A stretch of DNA of 64,000 bases. Source: an uncultured Sutterella sp. (GTDB lineage Bacteria; Pseudomonadota; Gammaproteobacteria; Burkholderiales; Burkholderiaceae_F). The position numbers were made by a program, and so were the translations under genes. How positions within the stretch are numbered: position 1 is the first letter of the stretch; every line of letters starts with the position of its first letter. Below the pieces are notes generated by a model, which did no database searches, was not told where the DNA came from, and worked only from the letters and a program-made list of their open reading frames with translations. Shown here piece after piece: positions 27,258 through 55,199 of this stretch. The stretch is taken from assembly GCA_905212345.1 (NCBI GenBank), contig CAJMEC010000004.1, positions 10,326 through 74,325 of the forward strand, given 5' to 3'.

Positions 27258-28220
27258 ATGTCTGATATTAAATTGAGTGGTCAAGCCGCTTTAAAGGCTT
27301 ATACGGGTATGGGATTGTACGTTTGTCCCAACGATGCTGACGGCCTCAATTCTCTTTACTACACGATTGAAGTCAATGATGCCCAAGGTGTTGCTTTTCT
27401 CAGAAGACTGCTGACAGTGGACGTGAAAAACATCCACCGCGGCGAAGTGCGTCAAAGTTTTATTCTGAATGCTTTGGGTTTAATGACCGATTTTGTTTGG
27501 GTAGCTCATTTACCCGATAACGACGAACATTTCCGTGTGGTCTTTCAGTCTCTCGACACTTTAGCTTGGATGCACCAAGTCGCTAAAGCTTTTGACGAAG
27601 ACTTCACAACACTGAAAACATCGACGGCAATTTTATTTGCGGATCAAACCCATACTCCTCACGGTTTAATGGCTGACGGTAAGGTACAGCTTATGAAAAC
27701 GGGAAAGGGCGAGGTTCTCGCTATGCGAGTTGGGGCAATGACCCTTATTCAGGGTGAAGAGAAAGCTTTTGAAAACTTCACTCATCCCGGAATGGAAGTG
27801 ATCGACGAGCTCTCTGCGATGACACTTAGCTGTGTTTCGAAGTCGCCGTTGGCTTTTGCTTGGCAAGCCAATGATTTGATGCCCGGTGACGTTAATGGAG
27901 CGGCTTATATCGACTTTTCCGATCCCTCGCGCATGTTTATTGGTCGAGCGTTAACCGAGGCGCGCCTGAAAGCCAGCGAAACAAAAAAAGCGGTTGTTCT
28001 GTCGTCTCATCAAGATCAAGCTGATGCCTGGTTTGAAAACCCCACTGAAGTAATTCTCTTAACTGAAGAGGGGATAGCGGTTGCCAAAAGTGCTTTTGTC
28101 GGTTTATTGGGAGATAAATTGATCTGTGTGGCATTTGTGCCGCAATCGACGGATTGCTCCCGACTGATTTGGATGAATGACGGTGAGCAACAAGCCTACC
28201 GTGTGGAAGTCCTTTCTTAA
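27258..28220 (+). CDS. Hypothetical protein, possibly a GcvT/YgfZ-like folate-binding fold
   Basis: 320-aa ORF with a good GAGAG RBS. There is only a weak impression of a C-terminal aminomethyltransferase-barrel-like region. No diagnostic motif was found. Confidence 0.35.
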   Translation: MSDIKLSGQAALKAYTGMGLYVCPNDADGLNSLYYTIEVNDAQGVAFLRRLLTVDVKNIHRGEVRQSFILNALGLMTDFVWVAHLPDNDEHFRVVFQSLDTLAWMHQVAKAFDEDFTTLKTSTAILFADQTHTPHGLMADGKVQLMKTGKGEVLAMRVGAMTLIQGEEKAFENFTHPGMEVIDELSAMTLSCVSKSPLAFAWQANDLMPGDVNGAAYIDFSDPSRMFIGRALTEARLKASETKKAVVLSSHQDQADAWFENPTEVILLTEEGIAVAKSAFVGLLGDKLICVAFVPQSTDCSRLIWMNDGEQQAYRVEVLS

Positions 28221-28235
28221 TACTGGGAGAATAAC

Positions 28236-29630
28236 GTGAGCGTTAGTGTTTTTGATATTTTTCGTGTCGGGATTGGTCCATCTTCTTCTCATACTGTTGG
28301 ACCTATGCGCGCCGCAGCCCGTTTTAGTAAAGAACTGATCGCTAAGGGGCTCACGCAAAAAACTGCCCGAATTTGGGTTGATTTGATGGGAAGCTTGGGG
28401 GCCACAGGTGTTGGCCATGCCACTGACACGGCCTTTCAGCTCGGACTCATGGGAATGCTTCCCGCCAATGTCGATCTTGACTTGGCACCGAAGATTCTTC
28501 AAGCCATTAAGACCGATCACCAACTCAAACTTCCTGATGGTACGGTCATCGAATTTGACCCGGCCAAAGATATTATTCTGAGCCCGGAGAAAGTGGCGAT
28601 ATACCACACCAATGCGATGCACGTCATCGCCCAGGATAAAGACGGTCAAGTGCTCCTGTCTCGTCGTTACTACTCTGTAGGCGGCGGCTTTATTGTTGAA
28701 AGCGACCCGAACAATTTCGACAAGGTTTCTGAAGATAAGGAAACGGTTCACACCAAACCGCAACCCTATCCAGTCAATAGTGCTGCAGATCTTTTAAAGT
28801 GGTGTCGCGAAACGGGCTTAACTATTCCTCAAATCGTTCGCGCCAATGAAAAGGTTTGGTGGGAAACGGACGAAAAAATCAATGCCCAGCTCGACTACCT
28901 TTGGTCGGTCATGAAGGATTGTGTCGCGCGTGGATTAAAAAATGAAGGGATTATGCCCGGTCCCATGAAGGTGCGCCGCCGCGCCAAGCAGATGTATGAA
29001 AAGCTTGACTACGAACACCGTACATTGAATGATCCTCTGGCTGTTCTCGATTGGGTTAACGCGTTTGCCTTCGCGGCCAATGAGGAAAACGCCTGCGGTG
29101 GCAGAGTTGTGACAGCTCCGACAAATGGCGCTGCCGGTGTCATTCCGGCTGTCCTTCATTACTACATGAAGTTTATTGATTCGGCCGACATCAATGGGGT
29201 TAGAGATTTTCTCCTGACAGCCGGTCAAATCGGCATTCTTTATAAAGAAAACGCGTCGATTTCCGGAGCAGAAGTGGGCTGCCAAGGCGAAGTGGGTGTT
29301 GCCTGCTCGATGGCATCGGGCGGCTTGGCTCAAGTGCTGGGCGCAACGCCACAGCAAGTGGAAAACGCAGCCGAAATCGGAATGGAACATCATTTGGGGA
29401 TGACCTGCGATCCGGTGGCCGGTCAAGTTCAGATTCCTTGTATCGAACGCAATGCGGTCGCCGCGGTAAAAGCTATCAACGCCGCGCGTTTGGCGCTGAT
29501 GGGTGATGGCCACCATTATGTTTCATTGGATCAGGTTATTGTGACGATGCTTAAGACCGGCTTAGACCTGCAGATGAAATATAAAGAAACCAGCCGTGGC
29601 GGGTTAGCGGTCAGTGTGGTTGAGTGTTAA
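28236..29630 (+). CDS. sdaA: L-serine dehydratase (single-chain, Fe-S dependent)
   Basis: GTG start with GGGAGA RBS. N-terminal [27 protein letters not shown] is near-identical to the enterobacterial SdaA N-terminus. 464 aa. Confidence 0.9.
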
Positions 29631-29644
29631 AAATTTATTGAAAA

Positions 29645-29682
29645 AGAGGTCGAGCCGCTTAAAGCGGCTCGATTCGTTTCGG
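29645..29682. terminator. Bidirectional terminator between sdaA and folA
   Basis: gagccgc-ttaaa-gcggctc hairpin with an A-run upstream and a T-rich tract downstream. Confidence 0.5.
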
Positions 29683-30177
29683 TTATTTGGTTTTACGAAT
29701 GTAGGTTCTGAAGCTGTAGCTAAAGGGGTGGGCATCGGTAGCAGGGAAAGACTCTTCCTCAGCGAGCGTCCATTCATCGTCTGATAGCGGTGTAAAGAAG
29801 GCGTCACCTTCAAAATCGGCATTCAGATAGGTGATATGCGCCACTTCTACCTGAGGCATTGCTTCCTGATAGATTTGCGCCCCACCCATAATGAAGGCAA
29901 TGGGCGCGTCATTGACAACCTGCAATGCCGCTTCAAGACTGGGCACAACCGTTGCCCCTTCGGCAACGTAATCCTTTTGACGCGTAATTACAACATTTCG
30001 CCGTCCGGGCAAGGGACGGCCCAAAGATTCCCAAGTTTTACGTCCCATAATGACCGGTTTGCCAAGCGTTGTGCGCTTAAAGTTTTTCAAATCTTCCGGC
30101 AAATACCAGGGTAATTTGTTGTCTTTGCCAATTACGCCGTTTCGGGCGTGGGCGACGATTAAATGTAATTGCGTCAT
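29683..30177 (-). CDS. folA: Dihydrofolate reductase
   Basis: 164 aa. IVAHARNGVIGKDNKLPW...GKPVIMGRKTWESLGRPLPGRRNVVITR matches the DHFR consensus. Confidence 0.9.
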   Translation of the reverse strand: MTQLHLIVAHARNGVIGKDNKLPWYLPEDLKNFKRTTLGKPVIMGRKTWESLGRPLPGRRNVVITRQKDYVAEGATVVPSLEAALQVVNDAPIAFIMGGAQIYQEAMPQVEVAHITYLNADFEGDAFFTPLSDDEWTLAEEESFPATDAHPFSYSFRTYIRKTK

Positions 30178-30188
30178 TGAAATCTCCT

Positions 30189-31007
30189 TTAGACCGCCAC
30201 CGGAGCTTTAATAGCCGGATGAGGGTCATAGCCCACAATTTCAAAATCCTCATACTTGTAATCAAAAATAGAGTCAGGACGACGCTTTATGACAAGTTTA
30301 GGATAAGGACGGGGCTCTCGAGACAATTGTAAGCGCACTTGATCGAAGTGGTTATTGTAAATATGGCAGTCGCCGCCGGTCCATACAAAGTCGCCCACTT
30401 CCAAATCACATTGTTGGGCAAGCATATGCGTTAAAAGTGAATAGCTTGCGATGTTAAAGGGGACGCCTAAGAAAATATCGCAGGAACGTTGATAAAGTTG
30501 GCAGGACAATTTTCCACCGGCCACATAAACTTGGAACATCATGTGGCAAGGCGGCAGAGCCATCTTGGGTAATTCTGTGACGTTCCACGCAGTGACAATC
30601 ATGCGACGAGAGTCAGGATTGTGTTTAATGGTGTGAACAAGTTCAGCGATTTGGTCAACGCTTTTATCATCGGCGCCGCGCCAATTGCGCCATTGCACGC
30701 CATAGATGGGACCGAGATCACCGTTTTCATCGGCCCATTCGTCCCAAATCGACACGCCGTTTTCTTTGAGGTAACCGATGTTGCTGTCACCTTTTAGGAA
30801 CCAGAGTAATTCATGAATGATGGAACGTAAGTGAAGTTTTTTTGTTGTGACCAGCGGGAAGCCGTTTTGAAGATTAAAACGCATCTGGTAGCCGAATACA
30901 GAACGTGTGCCCGTACCCGTTCGATCGCTTTTATCAACGCCATGGAAAAAAACGTGGCGCATCAGGTCTTCGTATTGATGTTCAACTAACATTTTTATAA
31001 GCCTCAA
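30189..31007 (-). CDS. thyA: Thymidylate synthase
   Basis: [19 protein letters not shown] and the catalytic region (...PPCHMMFQ...). Sits immediately upstream of folA, a thyA-folA unit. The true start may be the second Met (30992). Confidence 0.9.
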
Positions 31008-31114
31008 TAAACATTTCTATGTATTGTACTGAAGTGTTATTTGAATATTCCTGCCTAACTTCCTACTTTTGTTTATTTGATAAATTTGCTTGAAAAATAA
31101 TTTTTTATTGTTTT

Positions 31115-31132
31115 TAGATAAAATTTTATCTA
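31115..31132. promoter_or_regulatory. Perfect 18-bp palindrome TAGATAAAATTTTATCTA overlapping the putative -10 (TATACT, 31131-31136) of the yheO-like gene; candidate operator
   Basis: Exact reverse-complement symmetry read directly. It ends 10 bp before the ATG. -35-like TTGTTT (31108-31113) with a 17-bp spacer. No SD is present, so the mRNA may be leaderless. Confidence 0.4.
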
Positions 31133-31142
31133 TACTCAAAAC

Positions 31143-31823
31143 ATGAGCAATAAAAATCTACTTCCCTATTTCTCTGTAGCCGAATTGATTGCGAGGACTT
31201 TCCCGGATGCGGAAGTGGTCCTGCATGATCTTTCGCTACCGCAACATTCGGTTATTTACGTCGCCAACGGTACGGTCACCGGGCGAAAAGTCGGGCAAAC
31301 TTTCCATCATTTGATTGAAAAAGCCGTTTTCGCGGGCAATCCGGAGGACGGTGTTGTTGATAACTACACTTTCCAAAAAGACGGACGTCAGATCCGGTCC
31401 TCTTCGCTTTTGATCCGAAACGAACAAAAAGAGCTGATCGGCGCGTTGTGCATCAACATTGACACGACGCAAGCGTCAGCGTTGCTAAGTTTAGCCCAGG
31501 GACTTTTAACCGGGCGCAGAGCAGACACGAACTTAAAGAGTAAAGCGTTACATGGCAGTTCAGAGCAGAGCTGTCCTGTTGCCGTCGAAAAAAGCAACGA
31601 AGAAAGCGTCCGGCAGTTTGTTAACAACATGGTCGATTCGATGATTCACGAACTTGAACTCGAAGGTAAACACACCAAAGAAGATCGCTTAGAGTTGATT
31701 CGGTTTATGGATGAAAGGGGAGTGTTTCTCGTTAAAGGATCGATGGAATACGTGGCCGGTAAATTAGGGTTATCAAAAGTAACCCTTTACGGCTATTTGG
31801 ACAAAATTCATGGTAAGCGCTGA
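31143..31823 (+). CDS. YheO/DauR-family transcriptional regulator (YheO-like PAS domain + C-terminal HTH)
   Basis: 226 aa. N-terminal region resembles the YheO-like PAS domain. The C-terminus ...GSMEYVAGKLGLSKVTLYGYLDKI is a classical HTH. Confidence 0.55.
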   Translation: MSNKNLLPYFSVAELIARTFPDAEVVLHDLSLPQHSVIYVANGTVTGRKVGQTFHHLIEKAVFAGNPEDGVVDNYTFQKDGRQIRSSSLLIRNEQKELIGALCINIDTTQASALLSLAQGLLTGRRADTNLKSKALHGSSEQSCPVAVEKSNEESVRQFVNNMVDSMIHELELEGKHTKEDRLELIRFMDERGVFLVKGSMEYVAGKLGLSKVTLYGYLDKIHGKR

Positions 31824-31837
31824 TAAAGGATAGCGAT

Positions 31838-32932
31838 ATGAACTACATTTGCACCTGTTGCGGCAAACGTACGCCGACGACCACCAAAGAACCCCGTTGC
31901 GAGTGCGGCGGTTTATTCGAACTCGATTTCACGCCGCCTAAGTGGGACGAATCTTTAATTGATAAGACCGAATGGAGTCAATTCCGTTATCGCCGCTTTA
32001 TGGCCCTGGAAGATGACGCTTGGAAGTCTGTGACAATGGGCGAGGGGATGACGCCTATTATCCGCTTTGACGATAACGTTATGCTCAAGATGGACTATTA
32101 CATGCCAACCTTATCGTTTAAAGACCGGGGAGCGGCGACTTTGGTTTCGCATATGAAGTCGATCGGTGTGACCGACTGCGTCCAAGATTCAAGCGGTAAT
32201 GCCGGTAATGCTGTTGCGGCCTACGCAGCACGCGCGGGAATCGGCTGTGAGATCTTCGTCAAAGAAGGAACGAGCCCCTCAAAAATCCGAATGATCAAAT
32301 CGCACGGAGCTAAAGTCACCGAAGTTGTCGGCAGTCGAGATCACTGCGCAGATGTCTGTCGGGCCAAAGTTCGTGATGAACATCTTTTCTATGCCAACCA
32401 CGTTTTCAATCCCTTCTTCTATGAGGGGATGAAAGCGTATATTTATGAAACATTCGAGCAGCTTGGACGAATCCCTGCCAATATCGTGGTTCCGGTTGGA
32501 AACGGCACGCTCTACATCGGTGTCGTTAAAGCTCTGGAACATTTGTTGGCTTCGGGTGTCATCGAAAAATTCCCACAAATAATCGCGCTTCAGAGTGAAA
32601 AATGTGATCCGCTTTTCAAGGCGGCTGAGATCAAGGCAAGCGACCCCATCGACGTTGAGGTGGCCGATACAATGGCCGAAGGTATCGCTATCGGTAAACC
32701 TTCGCGTGGGCGCGAACTATTGCAAATGGCCTATAAGCACAATATCCGCTTTGTCACTGCGCCTGAAGATAAAATACTCGAGGCCCGTGCCAAATTAGCT
32801 TCCCGTGGTATTTACTGTGAACACACGACTGCGGCTAATTACGCGGCTTATTTGCATTACTGTGAACAGTACGGGCCGACGCCTGACACGTTGATTACCA
32901 TGTGCGGGGCGGGTATTAAATCGGACCACTAA
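31838..32932 (+). CDS. Threonine synthase-family PLP-dependent enzyme with an N-terminal Cys-rich zinc ribbon
   Basis: N-terminal CTCCGKRTPTTTKEPRCECGG. PLP-lysine motif PTLSFKDRGA. Tryptophan-synthase-beta-fold glycine-rich loops (VPVGNGT). 364 aa. Lies 14 nt after the yheO-like gene. Confidence 0.65.
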   Translation: MNYICTCCGKRTPTTTKEPRCECGGLFELDFTPPKWDESLIDKTEWSQFRYRRFMALEDDAWKSVTMGEGMTPIIRFDDNVMLKMDYYMPTLSFKDRGAATLVSHMKSIGVTDCVQDSSGNAGNAVAAYAARAGIGCEIFVKEGTSPSKIRMIKSHGAKVTEVVGSRDHCADVCRAKVRDEHLFYANHVFNPFFYEGMKAYIYETFEQLGRIPANIVVPVGNGTLYIGVVKALEHLLASGVIEKFPQIIALQSEKCDPLFKAAEIKASDPIDVEVADTMAEGIAIGKPSRGRELLQMAYKHNIRFVTAPEDKILEARAKLASRGIYCEHTTAANYAAYLHYCEQYGPTPDTLITMCGAGIKSDH

Positions 32933-33141
32933 GAATTAGCTATCGCGCATTTTTGCTTTGCTAAAATAAGGCGAATTGCTTAAATGTGCATGCAAAAACC
33001 CGTGTGATTCTTTCCCCTTATTTTTAAGTGTCACGGGTTTTAATCTGTTTTTTAAATGGATTAGGTTTTGTACACAGAAAAACCAAAGAATGTATAAGGA
33101 GAGGGTGTATTGCCTGGACTCAGGTTTTATACCGACTGACT

Positions 33142-35148
33142 ATGAATCCGTTGATTTTCGGCGTATGGGACGGACGCTTTTACGACAACCGATCCACTTT
33201 TTCACCGGTGGCGCCCGATGATCTGCCTCTGGAACAGTTCTCGCAGTTTAATCCCGGCAACCCTATCATGACATTTGTCTGCGATCGGGGTTTCCTCGTG
33301 ATGGATCGACGGGCTAATTTAGCTTTTTCTCTTTGGCGCTACTACCAAAGAGCGGTTCGCGAAACTTGCGGTAAATGCACACCTTGCCGTGTTGGCGTTC
33401 TAGTTATCTCCGAAGCTCTTGAAAAAGCGGTTAAAGGTCTCGCCGCGGATGTCGATTGGGATTACCTTAAGTCCGTGGCCACACAGATGAAAGAAACGAG
33501 TCTGTGCGGTATTGGTCAAACAACACCGGCAGCTCTCTTAGGCGCGCTTGAATTTTGTCCCGAAGAATTGCTTCAGGCTCAACCCGTTGCCGAAAACGTT
33601 TATGACTACTACACCGTCATGAGCGCTCCTTGTATTGAGGCTTGTCCCGCTCACGTTGATGTCCCGCGCTACATTGATTACATCAAAGCCGGTGAACCGG
33701 AAATGAGTTCCGCGGTTTTGCTTCGCCATTATCCGTTGGTTGGCAGTTGCGGCCGCGTTTGCGTTCGCTATTGCGAAAAAGCTTGCCGACGTCAATATCT
33801 TGATAGCCCGGTGGATATTAAAAACTTAAAGCGTTATGCGGCTGACGCCACCGGTCCCATGGAAAATCTTTTTCATCAGGCCCGACGTGAAACCAATCCC
33901 ATGAGTCCAAAAGTGGCAGTGATCGGTGCAGGTCCCGCAGGCATCAATTGTGCTTATCACCTTTTACTCCAAGGCTATAAGGTAGACATCTTTGAGGCCA
34001 ACAGTCATGCGGGCGGCATGGCTCAGGTAGGTATTCCACAATACCGCCTGCCTAAAGGTTTGCTTGAAAGCGAAACCGATGTGATTGAAGAGTTGGGGGG
34101 ACGTTATTTCTACCATCAGCGTCTGGGTTATGACTTTTCGATCGCCGATCTCTTCAAGAGAGGCTATAACGCCATTTTCCTCGGCGTCGGTTGCTCTAAG
34201 GGCATGTATCTTGGTCTTGAGAGCGAAGATACGAGCTTAAAGGGATACTTTAACGGCATTGATTTCCTGCAAAAAGTTGAACGAGCGGTGACTGGTAATA
34301 AACCCTTTAAATTGAACGGTGACGTTGTTGTGGTGGGTGGCGGCAACGTTGCCATGGACTGCGCACGCTCTGCGGCTCGCCTTACCGACGGTAAAGTTCA
34401 CGTCGTTTACCGTCGCACCGAAGAGGGAATGCCAGCTGACCACGAGGAAGTGGTTGCCGCTAAAGAAGAGGGGATTGTGTTCCACTTCCTATCAGTTCAA
34501 AAAGAGATATTGAACGAAGAGGGAAAAGTTACCGGCTTGAAGATCGCCAAGATGCGTGAAGAAAAGGTTCCGGGTTCAAAGCGCGGCAAACTCATTGAAA
34601 TCGAAGGAACAGATACAGTTTTGCCGTGTACCAATCTAATTGCGGCCATCGGTCAGCGCCTTGACCAAGAAGTTTTATGCGATGACGACGGCATTATGTT
34701 TGATAAGCGGGGCAATATTTCTGTTTCTGAGGCGCTGGCCACGACTCGTCCAGGCGTATTTGCGGGCGGAGACGCCGCAACCGGTCCCACGACTTTGATT
34801 GATGGTCTGGCGCAAGGTCAAATCGCCGCTCAATCAATCAATGAATACTTAACCCGGGGCTCGGTTGGTTTTGTCGCCCGTCGTCGCATGGGTGAATTGA
34901 TCAAGAAGGGAGATCTGATGAAAGAAAAGGATCCTCGGATCGACTTGTGCAAAGCCCCACGTCACAAACTTTCGACTTTAAGTGCCGAGGACCGTAAGGG
35001 CAACTTTGAAGAAGTGGACCTTCCGATGACGGAAAACGAAGCCATCGAAGAAGCCAATCGCTGCATGCGTTGCTACCGTATTTATGGTGTGGTGACACAG
35101 TTGCCGATTCCGGGTAACGTCACCCATATTCAAAACCAAGCGGTTTAA
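33142..35148 (+). CDS. GltD-like (glutamate synthase small-subunit family) NAD(P)H oxidoreductase with an N-terminal NuoF-like [4Fe-4S] fragment; partner of the [FeFe]-hydrogenase
   Basis: NuoF-type cluster motif ETCGKCTPCRVG. GltD N-terminal Fe-S cysteines (CIEACPAH...GSCGRVCVRYCEKAC). FAD and NAD(P) dinucleotide folds (VAVIGAGPAGI; VVVVGGGNVAMDCA). Ends 10 nt before hydA, which has an AAGGAG RBS. Start is uncertain: the ORF opens at 33028, but the first ATG is 33142. Confidence 0.75.
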   Translation: MNPLIFGVWDGRFYDNRSTFSPVAPDDLPLEQFSQFNPGNPIMTFVCDRGFLVMDRRANLAFSLWRYYQRAVRETCGKCTPCRVGVLVISEALEKAVKGLAADVDWDYLKSVATQMKETSLCGIGQTTPAALLGALEFCPEELLQAQPVAENVYDYYTVMSAPCIEACPAHVDVPRYIDYIKAGEPEMSSAVLLRHYPLVGSCGRVCVRYCEKACRRQYLDSPVDIKNLKRYAADATGPMENLFHQARRETNPMSPKVAVIGAGPAGINCAYHLLLQGYKVDIFEANSHAGGMAQVGIPQYRLPKGLLESETDVIEELGGRYFYHQRLGYDFSIADLFKRGYNAIFLGVGCSKGMYLGLESEDTSLKGYFNGIDFLQKVERAVTGNKPFKLNGDVVVVGGGNVAMDCARSAARLTDGKVHVVYRRTEEGMPADHEEVVAAKEEGIVFHFLSVQKEILNEEGKVTGLKIAKMREEKVPGSKRGKLIEIEGTDTVLPCTNLIAAIGQRLDQEVLCDDDGIMFDKRGNISVSEALATTRPGVFAGGDAATGPTTLIDGLAQGQIAAQSINEYLTRGSVGFVARRRMGELIKKGDLMKEKDPRIDLCKAPRHKLSTLSAEDRKGNFEEVDLPMTENEAIEEANRCMRCYRIYGVVTQLPIPGNVTHIQNQAV

Positions 35149-35158
35149 GGAGTCAGAT

Positions 35159-37003
35159 ATGGAAAATTTTGCTTGGTTTAACAGTCAAAAAGTGGCTTTC
35201 ACCGAAGGTCAGACCATATTGCAGGTGGCTAAGCAGGCCGATATTTTCATCCCGACACTTTGTGCGTTCATGCCTTTAAACCATACACCCGGTACGTGCC
35301 GTATGTGTTTGGTTGAAGTGTTTGATGAAGGCGATGAAGTCGGCCGAGTGGTGACAGCTTGCACGACACCGATCAAACAAGGACAAAGGATTTTTACGCG
35401 CAACGAACGTGTGCGCAAAATGCAACAGTTGCAAATGCAGCTTCTCTTTGCCGACCATGATCAAGACTGTAAGAGCTGCTCAAGACACGGCAACTGTGAA
35501 TTGCAGGACGTGGCCCTTTTTATTGGCATGCCAAACACGCCGAATCATTCAAACTATATTGCCAAACGCCCCTATGATGACTCTTCAATGGGCATCATCC
35601 GTGATGTCAATAAGTGTATCCGTTGCGGCCGCTGTGTAGAAGTGTGCCGGCAAGTGCAGGGAATTGGCGCCTTAACCATTGACAATTTTGGAACGATGGC
35701 CGGTGTGGCAATGACGGGGGCTAAACGTTGGGCCGATTCGACCAAATGTGTTCAATGCGGTCAATGTACGCTCGTTTGCCCAACCGGGGCTTTGAGTGAA
35801 AAAGACGAAACAGACCGCGTGCTTAATATGATCGATGATCTAGAGACGGTCACGATCGTTCAAATGGCGCCGGCTGTTCGTGTGACGCTTGGCGAAGAAT
35901 TCGGTCTGCCGCCCGGTGAAAATGTCGAAGAATTGATTGTCTACGCGCTCAAGCATATCGGTGTTGACTATGTCATGGACACCAATTTTGCGGCAGACGT
36001 TGTCATCATGGAAGAGGGGACTGAGTTGCTTGAACGCCTAAAGGCTAGAAAGGCCAACAAGGATGTCGCTCTGCCGATGTTTACGTCTTGCTGCCCAGGT
36101 TGGATCAATTATGTTGAAAAACACGCTCCGATGGTTATGGAGTACCTGTCGACCACACGTTCTCCTCAGGCCGTTTTCGGCGCGCTGGCTAAAGCCCTGC
36201 TGCCTCAACGGCTCAACATTTCCCGAGAAAAGCTGCGTGTAATTTCCATCATGCCGTGTACGGCAAAGAAGGGCGAGGCACAACGTCCGACTTTAGCCCG
36301 GGAAGAAGGGCTTGACGTGGATGCTGTTTTAACTGTTCGTGAATTGGCAAAGCTTTTGCGCCGTTGCGGTATGCACTTAAAGAATTGCAAACCCATGAAG
36401 CATGACCAAAGCCTCTTCACGGAATACTCCGGAGCCGGCGCCATTTTCGGAACAACCGGTGGGGTGATGGAAGCGGCAGTTAGAACCGTTTATGCTTTAA
36501 CGCACAACGGCGAAACCTTAGATCCGATTGTCTTTGAACCTGCCCGCGGCTTAGATGGCGTAAAAGACGCCGAAGTGGATTTGGGTGAGTTGGGTAAAGT
36601 TAGGATCGCCATCGTTCATGGACTGGCCAGAACCCAAGCGCTGCTTGATAAGATGAGCGCTGGTGATGTTATTTACGACTTTGTCGAAGTGATGGCGTGC
36701 CCCGGTGGTTGTATCGCTGGCGGCGGCACTCCGCGCAAAAAGAACAACTATCAGCTCAATACGCAGGAGCGTCAAAAGGGAATTTACCGCATTGACGATA
36801 AGGCCAGTGTTCGTGAATCGCACAAGAACCCTGAAATTGTTGCACTGTATCATGAATCGTTAGGTGAACCGGGTTCTCATCTGGCCCATGAACTATTGCA
36901 TTGCGAATATCGTTCAAAGAAGAGCGAAAAACCGGCTTCGGATATTCGCAAGCTCTGGCAAGTGTTAAGTTCACGTTATACGGAAACAGCTAAAAAGCGT
37001 TAA
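35159..37003 (+). CDS. hydA: [FeFe]-hydrogenase catalytic subunit
   Basis: N-terminal 2Fe-2S ferredoxin-like domain (CAFMPLNHTPGTCRMC). Two bacterial ferredoxin 4Fe-4S motifs (CIRCGRCVEVC; CVQCGQCTLVCP). H-cluster signatures L1 FTSCCPGW, L2 MPCTAKK and L3 EVMACPGGCIAGGG. Confidence 0.9.
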   Translation: MENFAWFNSQKVAFTEGQTILQVAKQADIFIPTLCAFMPLNHTPGTCRMCLVEVFDEGDEVGRVVTACTTPIKQGQRIFTRNERVRKMQQLQMQLLFADHDQDCKSCSRHGNCELQDVALFIGMPNTPNHSNYIAKRPYDDSSMGIIRDVNKCIRCGRCVEVCRQVQGIGALTIDNFGTMAGVAMTGAKRWADSTKCVQCGQCTLVCPTGALSEKDETDRVLNMIDDLETVTIVQMAPAVRVTLGEEFGLPPGENVEELIVYALKHIGVDYVMDTNFAADVVIMEEGTELLERLKARKANKDVALPMFTSCCPGWINYVEKHAPMVMEYLSTTRSPQAVFGALAKALLPQRLNISREKLRVISIMPCTAKKGEAQRPTLAREEGLDVDAVLTVRELAKLLRRCGMHLKNCKPMKHDQSLFTEYSGAGAIFGTTGGVMEAAVRTVYALTHNGETLDPIVFEPARGLDGVKDAEVDLGELGKVRIAIVHGLARTQALLDKMSAGDVIYDFVEVMACPGGCIAGGGTPRKKNNYQLNTQERQKGIYRIDDKASVRESHKNPEIVALYHESLGEPGSHLAHELLHCEYRSKKSEKPASDIRKLWQVLSSRYTETAKKR

Positions 37004-37007
37004 AATC

Positions 37008-37215
37008 ACCACCGAGTCTCAGGGCGGGGTGAAATTCCCCACCGGTGGTTAAAGTCCACGAGCGCGGGACGGGCTTAAAGCGTCCGTCCCGGTCAGCAGA
37101 ATCGGCGCAATTCCGATACCGACGGTTAAAGTCCGGAAGAAAGAGCAATAGCTTTCCTCACGGAGGATATGAAGCCTTCATATCCTCTTTCTCCCTGATG
37201 CGAATTTTGAATTTC
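37008..37215 (+). ncRNA. FMN riboswitch (RFN element) with terminator-type expression platform, leader of ribB
   Basis: Conserved aptamer cores TCTCAGGGCGGGGTGAAATTCCCCACCGGTGGTTAAAGTCCACGAGCG and GCAGAATCGGCGCAATTCCGATACCGACGGTTAAAGTCCGGAAGAAAGAG. Downstream hairpin gaggatatga-agcct-tcatatcctc followed by TTTCTCC. Then the ribB RBS and ATG. Confidence 0.85.
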
Positions 37216-37237
37216 TTCTCAATGAAAGGATACTTTT

Positions 37238-37891
37238 ATGCATCAGTCTGAAAACCTTCTGGCGCAATATGGCGTTGACAGCTACATGCGTGTTAAGCGT
37301 GCGATTGCTGATCTGCGTGCCGGGCGCGGAGTCATGGTTGTCGATGACGAAAACCGTGAAAATGAAGGGGATTTGATTTTATCAACCGATTTTCTGACCG
37401 TTGAGCAAATGGCTTTAATGATCCGAGCTTGCTCGGGGATTGTCTGCGTTTGCCTGCGTGATGAAGACTGTAAGCGCTTAGAGCTTCCTCAAATGGTTGA
37501 AAATAACACCAATACCCAGGGAACCGCCTTCTGCGTTTCCATTGAAGCTGCCCAGGGTTGCACCACAGGCGTAAGCGCCAAAGATCGTGTCACTACGATT
37601 AAAGCGGCCGCCAATCCCAATGGCAAACCTGAAGATCTGTTGCGTCCGGGTCATGTTTATCCGCTTCGCGCTCGTCCCAATGGAGTGCTTGAGCGCCGAG
37701 GTCATACGGAAGCAACGGTTGATCTCATGCGGATTGCAGGACTTAATCCTGCCGGCGTCCTTTGCGAATTAATGAACCCCGATGGAACAATGGCTAAGTT
37801 GCCTCAAGTCTGTGAATTCGCTAATTTGCACGGCTTATGCGTGATTACCGTAGAAGATTTGGTGCGTTACAGACAAGCTTTTAACTGCTAA
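37238..37891 (+). CDS. ribB: 3,4-dihydroxy-2-butanone 4-phosphate synthase
   Basis: 217 aa. [16 protein letters not shown] and [10 protein letters not shown] motifs. Controlled by the upstream FMN riboswitch, as is typical. Confidence 0.9.
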
Positions 37892-40851: not shown

Positions 40852-41089
40852 GATAAATCAAAGATTTAACCCCGTCTTTACAAAAAGCCTTACGTATAAA
40901 TCCCAAAGTAATTAGGGTTTCTACCTACTTTCGGTTTTTACAATTTGATACTACATTGAATCCAAGAGATTGAAACCCAAAACGTTTCGGCTCGTTTAAT
41001 ACCGTGTGCAGAGTTGTGTTTCTGCGTTGTTACGGCGCTCAAAAACGACCGCTCGCGATAATAAATATAAATTTGGAAAGGAGAATGCA

Positions 41090-42340
41090 ATGGCAAAATC
41101 TAAATCCGGTTCAATGGGTTTGGCAATGCAAATGCTCATTGGTCTTGTCCTAGGTGTGATCGTCGGTATGTTCCTGGACTCCCAGTTCGCCACTACCTAC
41201 GTGAAACCCTTCGGCGACTTATTCATCCGCTTGATCCGTATGGTCGTTGTTCCGTTGGTGTTCGCAACCTTGGTTGCCGGTGCCGCTGGTATTTCTGACG
41301 TGAGCAAACTGGGCCGCGTGGCTATCAAGACGTTGTTGATCTTCATGATCACGTCTGCGATTTCCGTGATTTTCGGTTTGGTTATCGCCAACATCATCGA
41401 CCCGGGCATCGGTCTTACGCTTTCAACCGAAGGCTTGAAGGCTGCTCAAGTGAAGGCTCCGAGCTTTGTTCAAACCTTACTTGACATCGTCCCGATTAAC
41501 CCGATGGAAGCTTTCGCTAAGGGCTCCATCCTTCAGATCATCTTCTTTGCCATCATGTTCGGCTTCTGCTTGAACTTCATGGGTAAGAAAGGTCAAGCCG
41601 TTTATGAATTCTTCGACGTTGTCGGCAACGTGATGATTCATATGACGCAAGTTGTCATGCGTTACGCCCCGATCGGTGTGTTCGCTTTGATGGCTGTTGT
41701 CGTTTCTCAACACGGTTTGGCAGTTTTGCTCCCGTTGGGCAAATTGATTCTGTCGTCCTTCATCGCTACGGCTTTGTTGATCATCGTGATCTATATCCCG
41801 ATCGTGATGTTCATCATTCGTATTCCGGTTGGCCAATACTTCAAGGGCATCTTTGAACCGTGGTTGATCGCTTTCACGACCTGCTCGTCTGCTGCCGCTA
41901 TGGCCGCCAACTTGGTTGCCGCCCGTCGCTTAGGTGCTACGAACTCGATCGCTTCCTTCGCAGTTCCGTTGGGCAACACCATTAACATGAACGGTACGGC
42001 CGTTTACATGGGCGTGTGCGCAGTGTTTGCAGCTCAAATTTACAACCTTCCGTTGTCACTCGGTGACCAAGTCATCGTTGTTATTACGGGTGTGTTGGCT
42101 GCTGTCGGTACGGCTGGTGTGCCGGGCGCCGGTTTGATTATGTCGACCTTGGTCTTCACGCAAATTGGTATTCCGCTTGAAGTGATCGCTTTGATCGCCG
42201 GCGTTGACCGTATCCTTGACATGATCCGTACGTCTATCAACGTCGTCGGTGACTCCACCACCGCTTTGATGGTCACCCGTATGGAGGGTGAATTAGGTTC
42301 TGAACCCTTCGAAGAAGAGGGCGAAGAAGCGAAAGCCTAA
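41090..42340 (+). CDS. Dicarboxylate/amino acid:cation symporter (DAACS/GltP-DctA family)
   Basis: 417 aa from ATG 41090 (AAGGAG 6 nt upstream). Re-entrant loop signatures and conserved NMNGTAVYMGV, AVGTAGVPGAGLIM and INVVGDS motifs typical of the SDF/DAACS family. The ORF-track start (GTG 41006) lacks an RBS. Confidence 0.85.
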   Translation: MAKSKSGSMGLAMQMLIGLVLGVIVGMFLDSQFATTYVKPFGDLFIRLIRMVVVPLVFATLVAGAAGISDVSKLGRVAIKTLLIFMITSAISVIFGLVIANIIDPGIGLTLSTEGLKAAQVKAPSFVQTLLDIVPINPMEAFAKGSILQIIFFAIMFGFCLNFMGKKGQAVYEFFDVVGNVMIHMTQVVMRYAPIGVFALMAVVVSQHGLAVLLPLGKLILSSFIATALLIIVIYIPIVMFIIRIPVGQYFKGIFEPWLIAFTTCSSAAAMAANLVAARRLGATNSIASFAVPLGNTINMNGTAVYMGVCAVFAAQIYNLPLSLGDQVIVVITGVLAAVGTAGVPGAGLIMSTLVFTQIGIPLEVIALIAGVDRILDMIRTSINVVGDSTTALMVTRMEGELGSEPFEEEGEEAKA

Positions 42341-42896
42341 TTAAAAGTCATCGATATACTTTAATTTAAGGTATGTTTAAATAAGGGGGTGTTCCGAAAG
42401 GACACCCCCTTAAATCATCTTTACAACACATACTCCTTTAGATTTTTTAATGATCGCCTATACAAACTATTGGTGTAAATTCTGGAATTTTTTAAATCAA
42501 CAATTGTTTGCACAAATATTTTTATTGATGTCCTATTTGAAGTGACACGAATTTCTGAGTAAAGCCATTGACCCAATCCAGATATTAGACCTTACTGCCA
42601 TAAACCTTGAACGAATCCATCTTAATGTACAAAAACAAGTGTCTTGTCCTGAAAAAAGTTGACACTTTTTGATTAGTAAAGGAGTGTCAGATGACATATT
42701 TCAGAGACTCGACGGAGTTGACTTGTCCTGAAATCGGTTGTCAGTTCCTGTGACCGTAGAAGTTTTCCTACAATTTTCGTTTGTAACAAAATGGTATTTC
42801 AATCGTCATCGGATATACCTTCAAATACAATCAATTCATCACAGCATCTTTTTGACTTGAATCCATGGTTGCTTCAGTTATTTTGAGGAGCAGACG

Positions 42897-43529: not shown

Positions 43530-43677
43530 ATTTTTCGCCCAAACAAACGTAAAAGTTGACAATTAGAACATCTTTGGATGACAAATAACTAATTGATTTA
43601 TTTAGGTATTTTAGCTAATTTGTCGTCAAAATATCAGCGATATACTCTCCGAAATTACTGATTCAAGACAGGAGGGT

Positions 43678-54885: not shown

Positions 54886-55199
54886 AAAAGTTTGGGCGCG
54901 CTTTGATTTAATAATAACTTCGCTTTGGAAAAGAGGATATCGGCTGCAACCAATACAAAGTAATCAAAATTTTCGCGCCTCAAGCGGCTGTTTAACTCTG
55001 TTTTTTAAATAAACCGCCCGGAGCGCATAACCTTTCCTTTTGAGATTATCTTTTAATACAGAGTTTTCTCCTTTTTTTCTCAAATACTCGTACCAAATGT
55101 AGGTGTTTTCCCACCTTGTGCCTAAGTAAAAGTTCTTACACAATATCTACCGACCAGAGTTTACTCTCCACGTCACTTCTAAAATTGAGGAGTTTTAAA

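What the first reader, a model, noticed from the sequence alone, without database searches (positions are those of the whole stretch)
31115..37003. Possible five-gene unit: YheO-type regulator, ThrC-like PLP enzyme, GltD-like oxidoreductase with NuoF fragment, [FeFe]-hydrogenase
HydA with a GltD-like partner is a known way of coupling H2 to NAD(P)H. Here the GltD-like subunit additionally carries a truncated NuoF-type module at its N-terminus: the ETCGKCTPCR cluster motif without the FMN/NADH domain. The pair sits directly downstream of, and co-directional with, a YheO/DauR-family regulator. A threonine-synthase-fold enzyme with a Cys4 zinc ribbon also lies upstream, with gaps of 14, about 200 and 10 nt. 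YheO-family regulators are normally associated with amino-acid catabolism (for example DauR), not hydrogenases. An amino-acid-fermentation module that disposes of reductant as H2 would be a coherent, and as far as I know undescribed, arrangement. The hydrogenase maturases hydEFG are not in the window.
Basis: partly seen in the sequence, partly recalled or inferred. Interest (0 to 1): 0.55.

Follow-up and report, generated by a model that had tools for sequence, protein, structure and literature searches.

The report
Hydrogenase beside amino-acid lyase genes
A gut Sutterellaceae bacterium keeps an uncharacterised NAD(P)H-linked [FeFe]-hydrogenase next to a regulator and an amino-acid-deaminating enzyme; relatives keep the same neighbours in other orders, which gives a testable clue to what this common gut hydrogenase type does.

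Summary
The genes are real, but there are four, not five: a YheO-type regulator, a ThrC-fold PLP enzyme, a GltD-like flavoprotein with a NuoF C-terminal [4Fe-4S] domain, and a catalytically complete group A [FeFe]-hydrogenase. The organism is Sutterellaceae (Ca. Aphodousia / Parasutterella secunda-like).

The juxtaposition is not strain-specific. Ten Aphodousia-type genomes share this order. Sutterella genomes keep the same genes adjacent in rearranged forms. There, a 14-bp palindrome otherwise found upstream of yheO lies 30-140 nt upstream of the hydrogenase operon. That operon often also carries malate dehydrogenase and a D-threo-3-hydroxyaspartate-dehydratase-like gene.

In this window, however, the two gene pairs look like separate transcription units. 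A terminator-like hairpin lies between them, and no palindrome precedes gltD.

The NuoF fragment is the norm for a large protein family. The PLP enzyme is not a threonine synthase: its phosphate-binding residues are replaced, and it is RidA-linked in relatives.

The pair fits HydDB group A2, which is still functionally uncharacterised. Context favours H2-to-NAD(P)H supply over H2 disposal.

Verdict: a new genomic context for a known but unexplained hydrogenase class, of moderate interest.

The parts
31096..31132 (.). Two AT-rich palindromic sites (AATAATTTTTTATT at 31096-31109; TAGATAAAATTTTATCTA at 31115-31132). They are the putative YheO operator, overlapping the yheO promoter. A -10-like TATACT lies at 31131-31136, and no Shine-Dalgarno sequence precedes the ATG.
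   Evidence: The site at 31117 is the top PWM hit in the 64-kb window (score 15.6), though that 14-mer was itself one of the sites the PWM was built from. 31096 and 31006 are also in the top 10. The same 14-bp motif, TA[TG]A-W6-T[AC]TA, recurs upstream of yheO in Sutterellaceae and Clostridia loci. Operator function and a leaderless transcript are inferred, not shown.
31143..31823 (+). YheO/DauR-family transcription regulator (YheO-like PAS domain plus C-terminal HTH), 226 aa.
   Evidence: PF08348 E 3.4e-30 and PF13309 E 3.7e-17, both above their cut-offs. It lies directly upstream of the PLP gene in 39 of 80 related genome loci. No relative has a solved structure.
31838..32932 (+). Fold-type II PLP enzyme of the threonine-synthase fold with an N-terminal Cys4 zinc ribbon, 364 aa. 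It is probably a deaminating beta-elimination lyase, not a threonine synthase.
   Evidence: PALP E 2e-67. All five ThrC NCBIfam equivalogs score below their cut-offs. The AF2 model has pLDDT 89.5, and the best Foldseek hits are ThrC structures at TM about 0.78. K95 lies in SFKDRG. The T. thermophilus ThrC residues T88, S155 and R160 align to A122, H188 and F194, which are invariant in the family. RidA lies directly upstream in 28 related loci. NCBI names a homologue only 'pyridoxal-phosphate dependent enzyme'.
32995..33051 (+). Terminator-like hairpin (AAAACCCGTG...CACGGGTTTT, 32995-33041) followed by AATCTGTTTT. It is the probable end of the yheO-PLP transcript.
   Evidence: Hairpin energy is -12.7 kcal/mol with a T-rich tail. 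Hairpins of -12.7 to -21 kcal/mol with unrelated sequences occupy the same gap in 8 of 11 same-order genomes, the window included. The whole gap folds with z = -3.3. The consensus terminator scan did not call it because the loop exceeds 8 nt. Termination efficiency is unknown.
33096..33141 (+). Leader of the gltD-like gene. AAGGAG lies at 33096-33101, a hairpin at 33104-33133, then the ATG at 33142 with no Shine-Dalgarno sequence next to it.
   Evidence: The same layout (AAGGAG, a hairpin whose sequence differs between genomes, then ATG) is seen in L009-L016. It is absent in L017 and L022 and in Sutterella loci, which have a normally spaced SD. No Rfam family matches. Its function is unknown.
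33142..35148 (+). GltD/NfnB-like FAD and NAD(P)H oxidoreductase subunit, 668 aa. It has an N-terminal NuoF-type [4Fe-4S] domain (about residues 48-144, CGKCTPCR at 76), a 2x[4Fe-4S] GltD N-domain and a C-terminal Cys-containing extension.
   Evidence: PF10589 E 2.9e-19, PF14691 E 1.9e-24, PF07992 E 1.3e-29, and NF009410/PRK12771 E 7.5e-120. The closest solved relatives are the GltD-like NADPH module of StnC (9bov_A 4e-101, 8oh5_C 2e-89) and NfnB (4ylf_B 1e-77). The N-domain matches the C-terminus of StnB, HydB and NuoF. The architecture is shared by all 120 best homologues.
35159..37003 (+). [FeFe]-hydrogenase catalytic subunit HydA, 614 aa, with M3-type domain order: [2Fe-2S], NuoG-type [4Fe-4S], 2x[4Fe-4S], H-domain and an SSU-like C-terminal domain.
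   Evidence: PF02906 E 4e-83, PF02256, PF10588 and PF13510. TIGR02512 scores 475.6 against a cut-off of 405.95. The H-cluster motifs lie at residues 309, 365 and 510. The same 90% cluster includes Parasutterella secunda WP_289549953.1, named '[FeFe] hydrogenase, group A'.
37011..37153 (+). FMN riboswitch aptamer of the downstream ribB gene (37238-37891). It marks the 3' boundary of the hydrogenase unit.
   Evidence: RF00050 scores 91 bits against a gathering score of 66.2. It starts 7 nt after the hydA stop with no terminator in between. ribB follows hydA in the same-order genomes whose contig extends that far.

Best explanation
The region holds two adjacent but separately transcribed modules. 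Both belong to a gene neighbourhood centred on YheO that is conserved in Sutterellaceae.

Module 1 is yheO plus the PLP gene.
- It is an autoregulated pair. YheO probably binds the AT-rich palindromes that overlap its own promoter. The signal it senses is unknown.
- The PLP enzyme has the threonine-synthase fold but has lost the phosphate pocket. It probably eliminates a beta-substituent from an amino acid to give an enamine/imine and then a 2-oxoacid plus ammonia.
- The substrate is probably a hydroxy amino acid such as 3-hydroxyaspartate or serine/threonine. It has not been determined.

Module 2 is the gltD-like gene plus hydA.
- It encodes a cytoplasmic two-subunit [FeFe]-hydrogenase of HydDB group A2.
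- Electrons pass between the H-cluster and an FAD/NAD(P)H site through the Fe-S chain of HydA, the NuoF-type [4Fe-4S] cluster and the two GltD clusters.
- I think it most likely runs from H2 towards NAD(P)H. That would supply cytoplasmic reductant to an asaccharolytic, H2-consuming bacterium, for example for reducing the oxoacids made by the lyase module (oxaloacetate to malate in Sutterella).

What is shown: gene identities, catalytic motifs, conservation of the neighbourhood, the palindromic motif and where it occurs, and the hairpin between the modules.

What is inferred: YheO binds the palindrome, the PLP chemistry, the direction of hydrogenase turnover, and the metabolic link between the modules.
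For: - Identities and motifs.
- Same gene order in 10 species-level Aphodousia-type genomes, with 76-98% identity for the PLP, GltD-like and HydA proteins and 44-95% for YheO.
- The same genes are adjacent but rearranged in Sutterella:
  - hydA-gltD divergent from yheO-(ridA)-PLP in 10 genome loci.
  - yheO <> gltD-hydA-mdh-ridA-PLP, tightly spaced and co-directional, in 3 genome loci.
  - yheO <> gltD-hydA-mdh without any PLP gene in L100/L101.
- A PWM trained only on yheO-upstream sites from loci without a hydrogenase finds at least one site within 150 nt upstream of gltD in 13 of 14 rearranged loci. The background rate is 7.7e-5 per nt. In the 20-kb loci L098 and L100, the only sites lie in the yheO<>gltD spacer.
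- Separate transcription in this window: hairpin plus T-run in the gap, and the best PWM score before gltD is -2.5 to -3.
- The PLP enzyme is not ThrC: A122, H188 and F194 stand in place of T88, S155 and R160, and the SSGNAGNA motif resembles serine dehydratase SAGNAGMA. All ThrC equivalogs score below their cut-offs.
- RidA lies directly upstream of the PLP gene in 28 loci. RidA proteins serve PLP dehydratases (PMC3565831). ThrC-fold enzymes can deaminate threonine (PMC12172450).
- Direction of turnover:
  - mdh follows hydA in at least 10 loci and passes the NCBIfam MDH cut-off (511 against 271).
  - A gene with E 3.5e-101 to D-threo-3-hydroxyaspartate dehydratase (an oxaloacetate-forming enzyme) follows mdh.
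  - Fumarase and a flavoprotein reductase lie nearby in L100.
  - Parasutterella and Sutterella are listed among the dominant gut H2 consumers.
  - Parasutterella is asaccharolytic and grows on asparagine and aspartate.
Against: - No expression data exist. Read-through of the hairpin is possible, and the U-tract can pair in an alternative fold.
- In this window there is no ridA, no mdh, no hydroxyaspartate-dehydratase-like gene and no palindrome before gltD. The functional link seen in Sutterella may therefore have lapsed here.
- In the divergent loci the spacer is shared, so the palindromes could serve yheO autoregulation only.
- All evidence for linkage comes from one bacterial family. The arrangements differ by only a few rearrangement events, so they are not many independent observations.
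- The gltD-hydA pair stands alone in Desulfovibrionaceae, Parasutterella-like and Mesosutterella loci, in 5 of 5 contexts.
- The GltD-like subunit has a YRR motif like NADPH-specific E. coli GltD (recalled from memory). The Sutterella MDH looks NAD-specific (LLE motif, also from memory). Direct cofactor coupling is therefore not assured.
- Group A [FeFe]-hydrogenases are reversible, so sequence does not fix the direction.
Confidence: 0.5

Rival explanations
1. All four genes form one operon for an amino-acid fermentation: the PLP enzyme deaminates an amino acid, oxidation of the oxoacid yields NAD(P)H, and the hydrogenase vents it as H2 under YheO control.
For: The genes are co-directional with short gaps. 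The order is conserved in 10 genomes. In three Sutterella genomes gltD-hydA-mdh-ridA-PLP really are a tight co-directional string. No consensus sigma-70 promoter was called on the + strand in the 209-nt gap. NADPH-driven H2 evolution is thermodynamically possible at moderate H2 pressure (my own estimate).
Against: A terminator-like hairpin lies in the gap in most same-order genomes. gltD has its own structured leader. No YheO-type site precedes gltD. No oxoacid-oxidising enzyme lies in the cluster. In relatives the hydrogenase is linked to malate dehydrogenase, which consumes NADH, and the organisms are reported as H2 consumers in an H2-rich habitat.
Confidence: 0.15
2. The adjacency in this window is an inherited leftover with no present functional or regulatory coupling. 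The hydrogenase is an independent redox-balancing enzyme, and yheO-PLP is an unrelated amino-acid catabolic pair.
For: Each module occurs alone elsewhere. The gltD-hydA pair stands alone in 5 of 5 contexts outside Sutterella and Aphodousia. The PLP gene occurs with or without yheO and ridA, and with no hydrogenase within the fetched 10-kb flanks, in most of the 80 genome loci, including all Clostridia loci. The window lacks the palindrome before gltD and lacks mdh, ridA and the dehydratase-like gene. The PLP gene is split by an IS insertion in strains whose hydrogenase genes are intact.
Against: Adjacency survives at least two rearrangements and about 45% protein divergence of the hydrogenase genes within the family. 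Operator-like sites lie upstream of the hydrogenase operon in 13 of 14 rearranged loci.
Confidence: 0.27
3. The PLP enzyme is simply the organism's biosynthetic threonine synthase.
For: The best sequence and structure matches are threonine synthases. The PLP-lysine motif SFKDRG is intact.
Against: It scores below every ThrC equivalog cut-off. Three of the five phosphate-contacting positions are replaced, including Arg160 by Phe, and the replacements are invariant in the family. It is linked to RidA, a regulator and a second catabolic PLP enzyme. It is about 70% identical between Sutterellaceae and Clostridia, which suggests horizontal spread of an accessory gene. It is IS-disrupted in some strains.
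Confidence: 0.05
4. The PLP enzyme is an accessory factor for H-cluster maturation, for example supplying a serine-derived fragment for the dithiomethylamine bridge.
For: Only proximity to hydA supports this, together with the known involvement of serine and PLP chemistry in bridge synthesis (recalled from the literature, not checked here).
Against: The family is widespread in loci with no hydrogenase within the fetched flanks, including all Clostridia loci. It is paired with RidA and is disrupted in strains that keep intact hydrogenase genes. The gltD-hydA pair in other genera lacks it.
Confidence: 0.03

Closest known systems
HydDB group A2 [FeFe]-hydrogenase ('glutamate synthase-linked', putative)
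   Same: A group A HydA with complete H-cluster motifs is encoded next to a GltD/PRK12771-type flavoprotein. This is the operational definition of A2.
   Different: The partner gene lies upstream of hydA rather than downstream. It carries a NuoF C-terminal [4Fe-4S] domain, which could trip the 'but not NuoF' clause. No glutamate synthase large subunit was seen in the window region or in the fetched flanks of related loci. Here the class sits in a cluster of a YheO regulator, a lyase and (in relatives) malate dehydrogenase. The class has no biochemical characterisation to compare with.
StnC of the Stn transhydrogenase and NfnB of NfnAB (GltD-like NADPH modules)
   Same: These are the closest solved relatives of the flavoprotein (E 4e-101, 2e-89 and 1e-77). 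They share the two [4Fe-4S] clusters, FAD and the NADPH site. StnC likewise joins a GltD module to a NuoG/HydA-type Fe-S domain (PMC10482914).
   Different: StnC is one fused polypeptide without an H-cluster and needs the StnAB bifurcating module. NfnB bifurcates with NfnA. Here there is an active-looking HydA, and no NuoE-, NuoF(FMN)- or NfnA-type partner was seen in the locus.
Electron-bifurcating HydABC (group A3)
   Same: It has the same M3-type HydA. The [4Fe-4S] domain at the flavoprotein N-terminus is homologous to the C-terminus of HydB/NuoF (7q4w_B, E 7e-12).
   Different: The FMN/NADH-binding part of HydB and the NuoE-like HydC were not detected. The NAD(P)H site is a GltD-type FAD domain instead.
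Threonine synthase (ThrC) and ThrC-fold relatives (cysteate synthase/CapA; moonlighting ThrC deaminase)
   Same: The fold matches (TM about 0.78 to 2d1f, 2zsj and 1v7c; 9k3c CapA2 is also hit). The PLP-lysine motif and overall length also match.
   Different: T88, S155 and R160 of the phosphate pocket are A, H and F. Phe of the GNFDD loop is Arg (GSRDH). A Cys4 ribbon is present. The genomic partners are RidA and a regulator rather than thrA/thrB.
YheO (E. coli) / DauR (P. aeruginosa) regulators
   Same: The two-domain architecture, PAS_6 plus HTH_22, is the same. E. coli YheO is a validated DNA-binding factor of unknown role. The DauR link to D-amino-acid catabolism is recalled from memory.
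   Different: In Sutterellaceae the regulator's putative operator lies in front of a hydrogenase-mdh operon as well as in front of amino-acid lyase genes. I found no published association of this family with hydrogenases.
D-threo-3-hydroxyaspartate dehydratase (Delftia, PDB 3WQC) with malate dehydrogenase
   Same: In Sutterella relatives, the gene after hydA-mdh matches this enzyme over its full length (E 3.5e-101). Its product, oxaloacetate, is the MDH substrate.
   Different: Neither gene is present in this window. The activity of the Sutterella protein is untested.

Membership tests
[FeFe]-hydrogenase, group A (catalytic HydA) | H-cluster binding motifs L1 (TSCCPxW), L2 (MPCxxKxxE) and L3 (ExMACxxGCxxGGGxP) | tested here: met
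   TSCCPGW at residue 309, MPCTAKKGE at 365 and EVMACPGGCIAGGGTP at 510.
[FeFe]-hydrogenase, group A (catalytic HydA) | Score above the curated cut-off of the TIGR02512 family model | tested here: met
   475.6 bits against a cut-off of 405.95. NF040763 'A6' scores 677 against 765, so that finer label is not met.
[FeFe]-hydrogenase, group A (catalytic HydA) | Maturases HydE, HydF and HydG present in the genome | not testable with these tools
   None was found among 44 window ORFs of 150 aa or more. The rest of the genome is not available.
HydDB group A2 | The neighbouring gene product carries a GltA, GltD, PRK12771 or PRK12814 domain | tested here: met
   NF009410 (PRK12771) E 7.5e-120 and NF009454 (PRK12814) E 2e-105, plus Fer4_20 and Pyr_redox_2. 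The rule is quoted. The partner lies upstream, not downstream.
HydDB group A2 | The partner has no NuoF domain | tested here: inconclusive
   Only the C-terminal [4Fe-4S] part of NuoF matches (TIGR01959 positions 313-405 of 410, E 1e-11; PF10589). No FMN/NADH domain was detected. A CDD-based classifier was not run.
HydDB group A2 | H2:NAD(P)+ oxidoreductase activity | not testable with these tools
   The class is described as functionally uncharacterised.
Electron-bifurcating HydABC (group A3) | A HydB/NuoF-type subunit with FMN and NADH sites, and a NuoE-like HydC | tested here: not met
   No Complex1_51K/FMN domain and no NuoE-like ORF lie in 31115-37003.
Threonine synthase | Fold-type II ThrC fold with the PLP lysine in an SFKDRG-type motif | tested here: met
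   Foldseek TM is 0.76-0.89 to ThrC structures. K95 lies in SFKDRG.
Threonine synthase | Phosphate-binding residues for O-phosphohomoserine (T. thermophilus T88, N154, S155, R160, N188; roles recalled from Omi et al. 2003, not re-read) | tested here: not met
   The aligned residues are A122, N187, H188, F194 and N222. A122, H188 and F194 are invariant in 19 family members.
Threonine synthase | Score above the cut-off of an NCBIfam ThrC equivalog | tested here: not met
   Scores against cut-offs are 253/301, 205/358, 190/303, 163/421 and 125/167.
RidA-coupled PLP dehydratase/lyase (functional class) | A Rid-family gene adjacent to and co-directional with the PLP gene | tested here: not met
   It is absent from this window (tblastn found no hit). 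It is present directly upstream in 28 related loci, including the same-order genomes L017 and L022.
RidA-coupled PLP dehydratase/lyase (functional class) | Release of a 2-oxoacid and ammonia from an amino acid | not testable with these tools
   This needs an enzyme assay.
YheO/DauR-family regulator | PAS_6 domain plus HTH_22 domain above the Pfam cut-offs | tested here: met
   104.7 bits against 27, and 62.6 against 29.6.
YheO/DauR-family regulator | Binds DNA at its own promoter and at target promoters | tested here: inconclusive
   A conserved palindrome lies upstream of yheO in many loci and upstream of gltD in 13 of 14 rearranged loci. Binding was not shown. No site precedes gltD in this window.
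   A hairpin of -12.7 kcal/mol with a T-rich tail lies in the 209-nt gap, and comparable hairpins are conserved as a feature in 8 of 11 genomes, the window included. No transcript data exist.

The most novel reading that the evidence does not exclude
In Sutterellaceae, a YheO-family regulator controls a regulon that joins the uncharacterised group A2 [FeFe]-hydrogenase to amino-acid lyases and malate dehydrogenase. The lyases are a ThrC-fold enzyme with RidA and a D-threo-3-hydroxyaspartate-dehydratase-like enzyme. In this reading, H2 is used through NAD(P)H to reduce amino-acid-derived oxaloacetate to malate, which feeds fumarate respiration. This would give group A2 hydrogenases their first physiological role. 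It would also give the YheO family its first hydrogenase target. The ThrC-fold enzyme would be a new hydroxy-amino-acid ammonia-lyase. The window would hold a pared-down version of this system.
Probability: 0.25. Interest if true: 0.65.

Novelty: new variant of a known kind. Interest (0 to 1): 0.45.

Why it matters
Group A2 [FeFe]-hydrogenases are reported in about 17% of human-gut bacterial species. They are left out of H2 budgets because nobody knows what they do.

This Sutterellaceae neighbourhood offers a concrete, testable hypothesis for one lineage of them. The hypothesis includes a regulator with a defined candidate operator, two amino-acid lyases, RidA and malate dehydrogenase.

Cultured organisms carry the cluster (Parasutterella secunda and Sutterella wadsworthensis), so experiments are feasible.

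The work also flags two further points. A widespread family of ThrC-fold enzymes is probably mis-thought of as threonine synthase. And the NuoF fragment could make rule-based classifiers label these enzymes as bifurcating (A3).

Tried and rejected
- Known RNA elements in the 209-nt gap: an Rfam search at E<=1 found none.
- A YheO-type site before gltD in the window or in other same-order genomes: none was found, apart from a weak one in L017.
- An N-terminal extension of the GltD-like protein from the GTG at 33028: rejected. L009 has an in-frame stop 9 codons upstream of the conserved ATG, and all orthologues start at MNP/MTP.
- A conserved upstream mini-ORF after the AAGGAG: it is not conserved across genomes (my reading).
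- ridA, mdh or a DSD1-like gene elsewhere in the window: tblastn found nothing.
- hydEFG in the window: none found.
- Independent acquisition of the hydrogenase in the Aphodousia and Sutterella lineages: a neighbour-joining tree places the window clade nearer to Parasutterella- and Desulfovibrionaceae-type proteins than to the Sutterella clade. The tree is too crude to decide, so I make no claim.
- Literature on YheO/DauR linked to hydrogenases, or on ThrC Arg160: nothing usable is in the held library. Residue roles are therefore cited from memory.
- Substrate assignment from neighbouring genes: the neighbours are heterogeneous (M20 peptidase, Opp transporter, LeuCD-like, DcuC, adenosine-deaminase-like). 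Only the 3-hydroxyaspartate lead in Sutterella is specific.
- The metagenome scan, the third homology search and the second structure job were not used.

Full report
**What is there**

The interval 31115-37003 holds four co-directional genes, not five.
- 31143-31823 encodes a YheO-type regulator: PAS_6 E 3e-30 and HTH_22 E 4e-17.
- 31838-32932 encodes a fold-type II PLP enzyme. PALP scores E 2e-67. Its N-terminus carries four cysteines (C5, C8, C21, C23) that are invariant in 19 homologues.
- 33142-35148 encodes a 668-aa flavoprotein. The open frame reaches back to 33028, but every orthologue starts at the ATG at 33142, and the closest genome has an in-frame stop just upstream.
  - It consists of a NuoF-type C-terminal [4Fe-4S] domain (PF10589 E 3e-19; CGKCTPCR at residue 76), the GltD two-cluster domain (PF14691) and the FAD/NAD(P)H domains.
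  - No NuoF FMN/NADH domain was detected.
- 35159-37003 encodes an M3-type HydA. It scores above the TIGR02512 cut-off and has all three H-cluster motifs.

The gaps are 14, 209 and 10 nt. None of the 44 window ORFs of 150 aa or more that I scanned is HydE, HydF or HydG.

**Organism**

The four proteins are 95-98% identical to those of a Candidatus Aphodousia faecalis MAG. The HydA 90% cluster contains a Parasutterella secunda RefSeq protein. The window comes from a gut member of the Sutterellaceae. Parasutterella is described as asaccharolytic and able to grow on asparagine and aspartate. The window also encodes an asparaginase, an aminotransferase, an Fe-S L-serine dehydratase and a dicarboxylate/amino-acid symporter.

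**The NuoF fragment is normal for this family**

All 120 best homologues of the flavoprotein carry PF10589 together with PF14691 and Pyr_redox_2. These include proteins from Desulfovibrionaceae, Parasutterella and Mesosutterella.

A library-wide search with the first 193 residues found 186 50%-identity clusters at E<=1e-10. About 25 of the listed hits are full-length proteins of 600-690 aa with the module at the N-terminus, at down to about 26% identity.

The closest solved relatives of the main body are the GltD-like NADPH module of StnC (E 4e-101 and 2e-89) and NfnB (E 1e-77). The N-terminal domain matches the C-terminus of StnB, HydB and NuoF.

**Classification of the hydrogenase**

HydDB defines group A2 by a GltD- or PRK12771-type neighbour. 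It lists the class as 'putative, undetermined role'. A 2026 survey still calls A2 functionally uncharacterised although it occurs in 17% of gut bacterial species.

The pair meets this operational definition. The one caveat is that the NuoF fragment might trigger the 'NuoF' rule for A3. The true A3 requirements, an FMN-binding HydB and a NuoE-like HydC, are not met.

**The PLP enzyme is not a threonine synthase**

Its best sequence and structure matches are threonine synthases. Sequence E-values are 4e-30 to 1e-20. The AF2 model has pLDDT 89.5, and Foldseek TM is about 0.78. Even so, it scores below the cut-off of all five NCBIfam ThrC equivalogs.

In the alignment to T. thermophilus ThrC, the PLP lysine is conserved. 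The residues I recall as holding the substrate phosphate are T88, S155 and R160. They are replaced by A122, H188 and F194, which are invariant in the family. The SSGNAGNA loop resembles serine dehydratase (SAGNAGMA) rather than ThrC (STGNTSAS). The Phe of the ThrC GNFDD loop is Arg (GSRDH).

In 28 related loci a Rid-family gene lies directly upstream of the PLP gene. RidA proteins hydrolyse the enamine/imine products of PLP dehydratases (PMC3565831). ThrC-fold enzymes are known to deaminate threonine (PMC12172450). NCBI names a homologue only 'pyridoxal-phosphate dependent enzyme'.

The family is about 70% identical between Sutterellaceae and Clostridia, which fits an accessory catabolic gene. 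I therefore read it as a deaminating lyase of unknown substrate.

**Synteny**

I fetched 80 genome loci that encode PLP homologues of at least 67% identity. I mapped the neighbouring genes by tblastn and added loci found through GltD homologues. The arrangements are:

| Type | Gene order | Loci |
|---|---|---|
| A | yheO-(ridA)-PLP-gltD-hydA | window and 10 Aphodousia-type genomes; ridA only in L017 and L022 |
| B | (dehydratase-like-mdh-)hydA-gltD <> yheO-(ridA)-PLP | 10 Sutterella genome loci, plus L098/L099 |
| C | yheO <> gltD-hydA-mdh-ridA-PLP, with gaps of 5-100 nt | 3 genome loci |
| D | yheO <> gltD-hydA-mdh-lysR, with class I fumarase and a flavoprotein reductase nearby, no PLP gene | L100/L101 |
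| 0 | gltD-hydA alone | Desulfovibrionaceae, Parasutterella-like and Mesosutterella; 5 of 5 contexts |

All 21 Clostridia loci have the PLP gene, often with yheO, ridA and a DSD1-like gene, but never a hydrogenase.

The mdh product passes the MDH equivalog cut-off (511 against 271). The gene after it matches D-threo-3-hydroxyaspartate dehydratase at E 3.5e-101.

The juxtaposition is thus conserved across a family and survives rearrangement. However, type C is one inversion away from type B, and everything lies within one family. The number of independent events is therefore small.

**A candidate YheO operator**

Upstream of yheO, in both Sutterellaceae and Clostridia, there are one to three copies of a 14-bp AT-rich palindrome, TA[TG]A-W6-T[AC]TA.

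I trained a PWM only on sites from loci that lack a hydrogenase. It finds at least one site within 150 nt upstream of gltD in 13 of 14 B- and C-type loci, against a background of 7.7e-5 per nt. It finds none in 11 A-type loci and none in 3 stand-alone loci. In the 20-kb loci L098 and L100 the only hits are the two in the yheO<>gltD spacer.

In the window, the best hit in 64 kb is GATAAAATTTTATC at 31117, 26 nt before the yheO ATG. That site was one of those used to build the first PWM, so its top rank is partly circular. Two more top-10 hits lie in the same spacer. The best score in the PLP-gltD gap is about -3.

The YheO-hydrogenase connection is therefore well supported in Sutterella and not visible in this window. 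Because the spacers in types B, C and D are shared with yheO, the sites could in principle serve autoregulation only. Binding by YheO is inferred.

**Transcription units in the window**

The 209-nt gap contains a hairpin at 32995-33041 (-12.7 kcal/mol) followed by AATCTGTTTT. The gap folds better than shuffles do (z = -3.3). Eight of the eleven A-type genomes, the window included, have a stable hairpin plus T-rich tail at this place. Their stem sequences are unrelated, which points to selection for the structure.

gltD then has its own peculiar leader: AAGGAG at 33096-33101, a hairpin at 33104-33133, and the ATG at 33142 with no adjacent Shine-Dalgarno sequence. This layout is repeated with different stems in L009-L016.

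I conclude that yheO-PLP and gltD-hydA are most likely separate units here. Read-through cannot be excluded without transcript data.

**Direction and role**

Sequence cannot fix the direction of a group A hydrogenase. Three lines of context favour H2 oxidation to NAD(P)H:
- Malate oxidation could not drive H2 evolution, so an mdh in the operon implies NADH consumption.
- An oxaloacetate-forming dehydratase homologue, fumarase and a flavoprotein reductase are nearby in relatives.
- Parasutterella and Sutterella are listed among the dominant gut H2 consumers.

A model for Sutterella follows. The lyases turn hydroxy amino acids into oxaloacetate. The A2 hydrogenase supplies NAD(P)H from H2 for its reduction to malate, which then enters fumarate respiration.

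There are caveats. The cofactor preferences of the two enzymes may differ (motif readings from memory). mdh may be the housekeeping copy. None of the accessory genes is present in this window.

**Verdict**

A YheO regulator and an amino-acid enzyme really do travel with this hydrogenase in Sutterellaceae.

The single-operon reading, the H2-disposal reading and the special status of the NuoF fragment are not supported. The hydrogenase is a member of the known but unexplained A2 class. What is new is the context, which offers a testable hypothesis in culturable gut bacteria.

- Interest: 0.45.
- Novelty: new variant of a known kind.

Noticed in passing
window 37003-37238: The FMN riboswitch aptamer (37011-37153) begins 7 nt after the hydA stop with no terminator in between. 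Its own terminator hairpin (about 37162-37195) precedes ribB. hydA transcripts may therefore run into the riboswitch, and the riboswitch terminator may double as the hydA terminator. ribB follows hydA in the same-order genomes whose contig extends that far. The flavoprotein partner needs flavin, which may or may not be relevant.
   Followed up: partly
window 33096-33145; L009-L016 upstream of gltD: AAGGAG lies about 45 nt upstream of the gltD start. A hairpin with genome-specific sequence lies in between, and no Shine-Dalgarno sequence sits next to the ATG. In several genomes the AAGGAG can also pair with codons 3-4 (CCCTTG). This could be a split ribosome-binding site or a translational control element. 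It is absent in L017, L022 and Sutterella loci.
   Followed up: partly
L098/L099 12980-16341; L050, L058, L070: In Sutterella wadsworthensis-like genomes the hydrogenase operon continues with malate dehydrogenase, a homologue of D-threo-3-hydroxyaspartate dehydratase (E 3.5e-101 to PDB 3WQC) and a RarD/EamA transporter. This points to 3-hydroxyaspartate or a related amino acid as the substrate of the regulon.
   Followed up: partly
L100/L101 7889-19621: One abundant lineage has yheO divergent from gltD-hydA-mdh-lysR with no PLP or ridA gene. Class I fumarase subunits and an FMN_bind/FAD_binding_2 reductase lie next to it. The only two operator-type sites in 20 kb are in the yheO<>gltD spacer.
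   Followed up: partly
L098 361-7286; L099 2664-7214: The ThrC-fold PLP gene is split into two fragments by an insertion that carries IS21-family (rve, IstB) and TnpB-like genes. The adjacent ridA, yheO and hydrogenase genes are intact.
   Followed up: no
L091 10001-11652: In a Parasutterella MAG, hydA is called as two pieces: 92 aa (Fer2_4) and 423 aa (H-domain). This may be a frameshift, a pseudogene or an assembly error.
   Followed up: no
window 33142-33573 (GltD-like N-terminus): The NuoF C-terminal fragment gives a weak TIGR01959/NuoF hit (E 1e-11). Rule-based schemes that call A3 when 'NuoF' is detected may misfile this widespread family as bifurcating hydrogenases.
   Followed up: no
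L089/L090 11891-16584: In Desulfovibrionaceae the stand-alone gltD-hydA pair is followed by a radical-SAM gene (a possible maturase), and a [NiFe]-hydrogenase lies nearby.
   Followed up: no
window 31131-31145: yheO has no Shine-Dalgarno sequence. A -10-like hexamer (TATACT; TAAACT in relatives) ends 6-10 nt before the ATG, which suggests a leaderless or near-leaderless mRNA whose promoter is overlapped by the palindrome.
   Followed up: no
window 27258-31007, 41006-44838, 48989-49783, 55116-56258: The surroundings are rich in amino-acid metabolism genes: a GcvT-like protein, an Fe-S L-serine dehydratase, folA-thyA (divergent from yheO), an SDF symporter, an aminotransferase, a second and possibly truncated PALP ORF, and an asparaginase.
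   Followed up: no
window 22116-23612 and 60000-64000: A phage-type integrase gene lies at 22116-23612. A C-5 cytosine methylase gene (62446-63705) lies in a lower-GC stretch (0.38-0.42). Both are possible mobile-element remnants unrelated to the finding.
   Followed up: no
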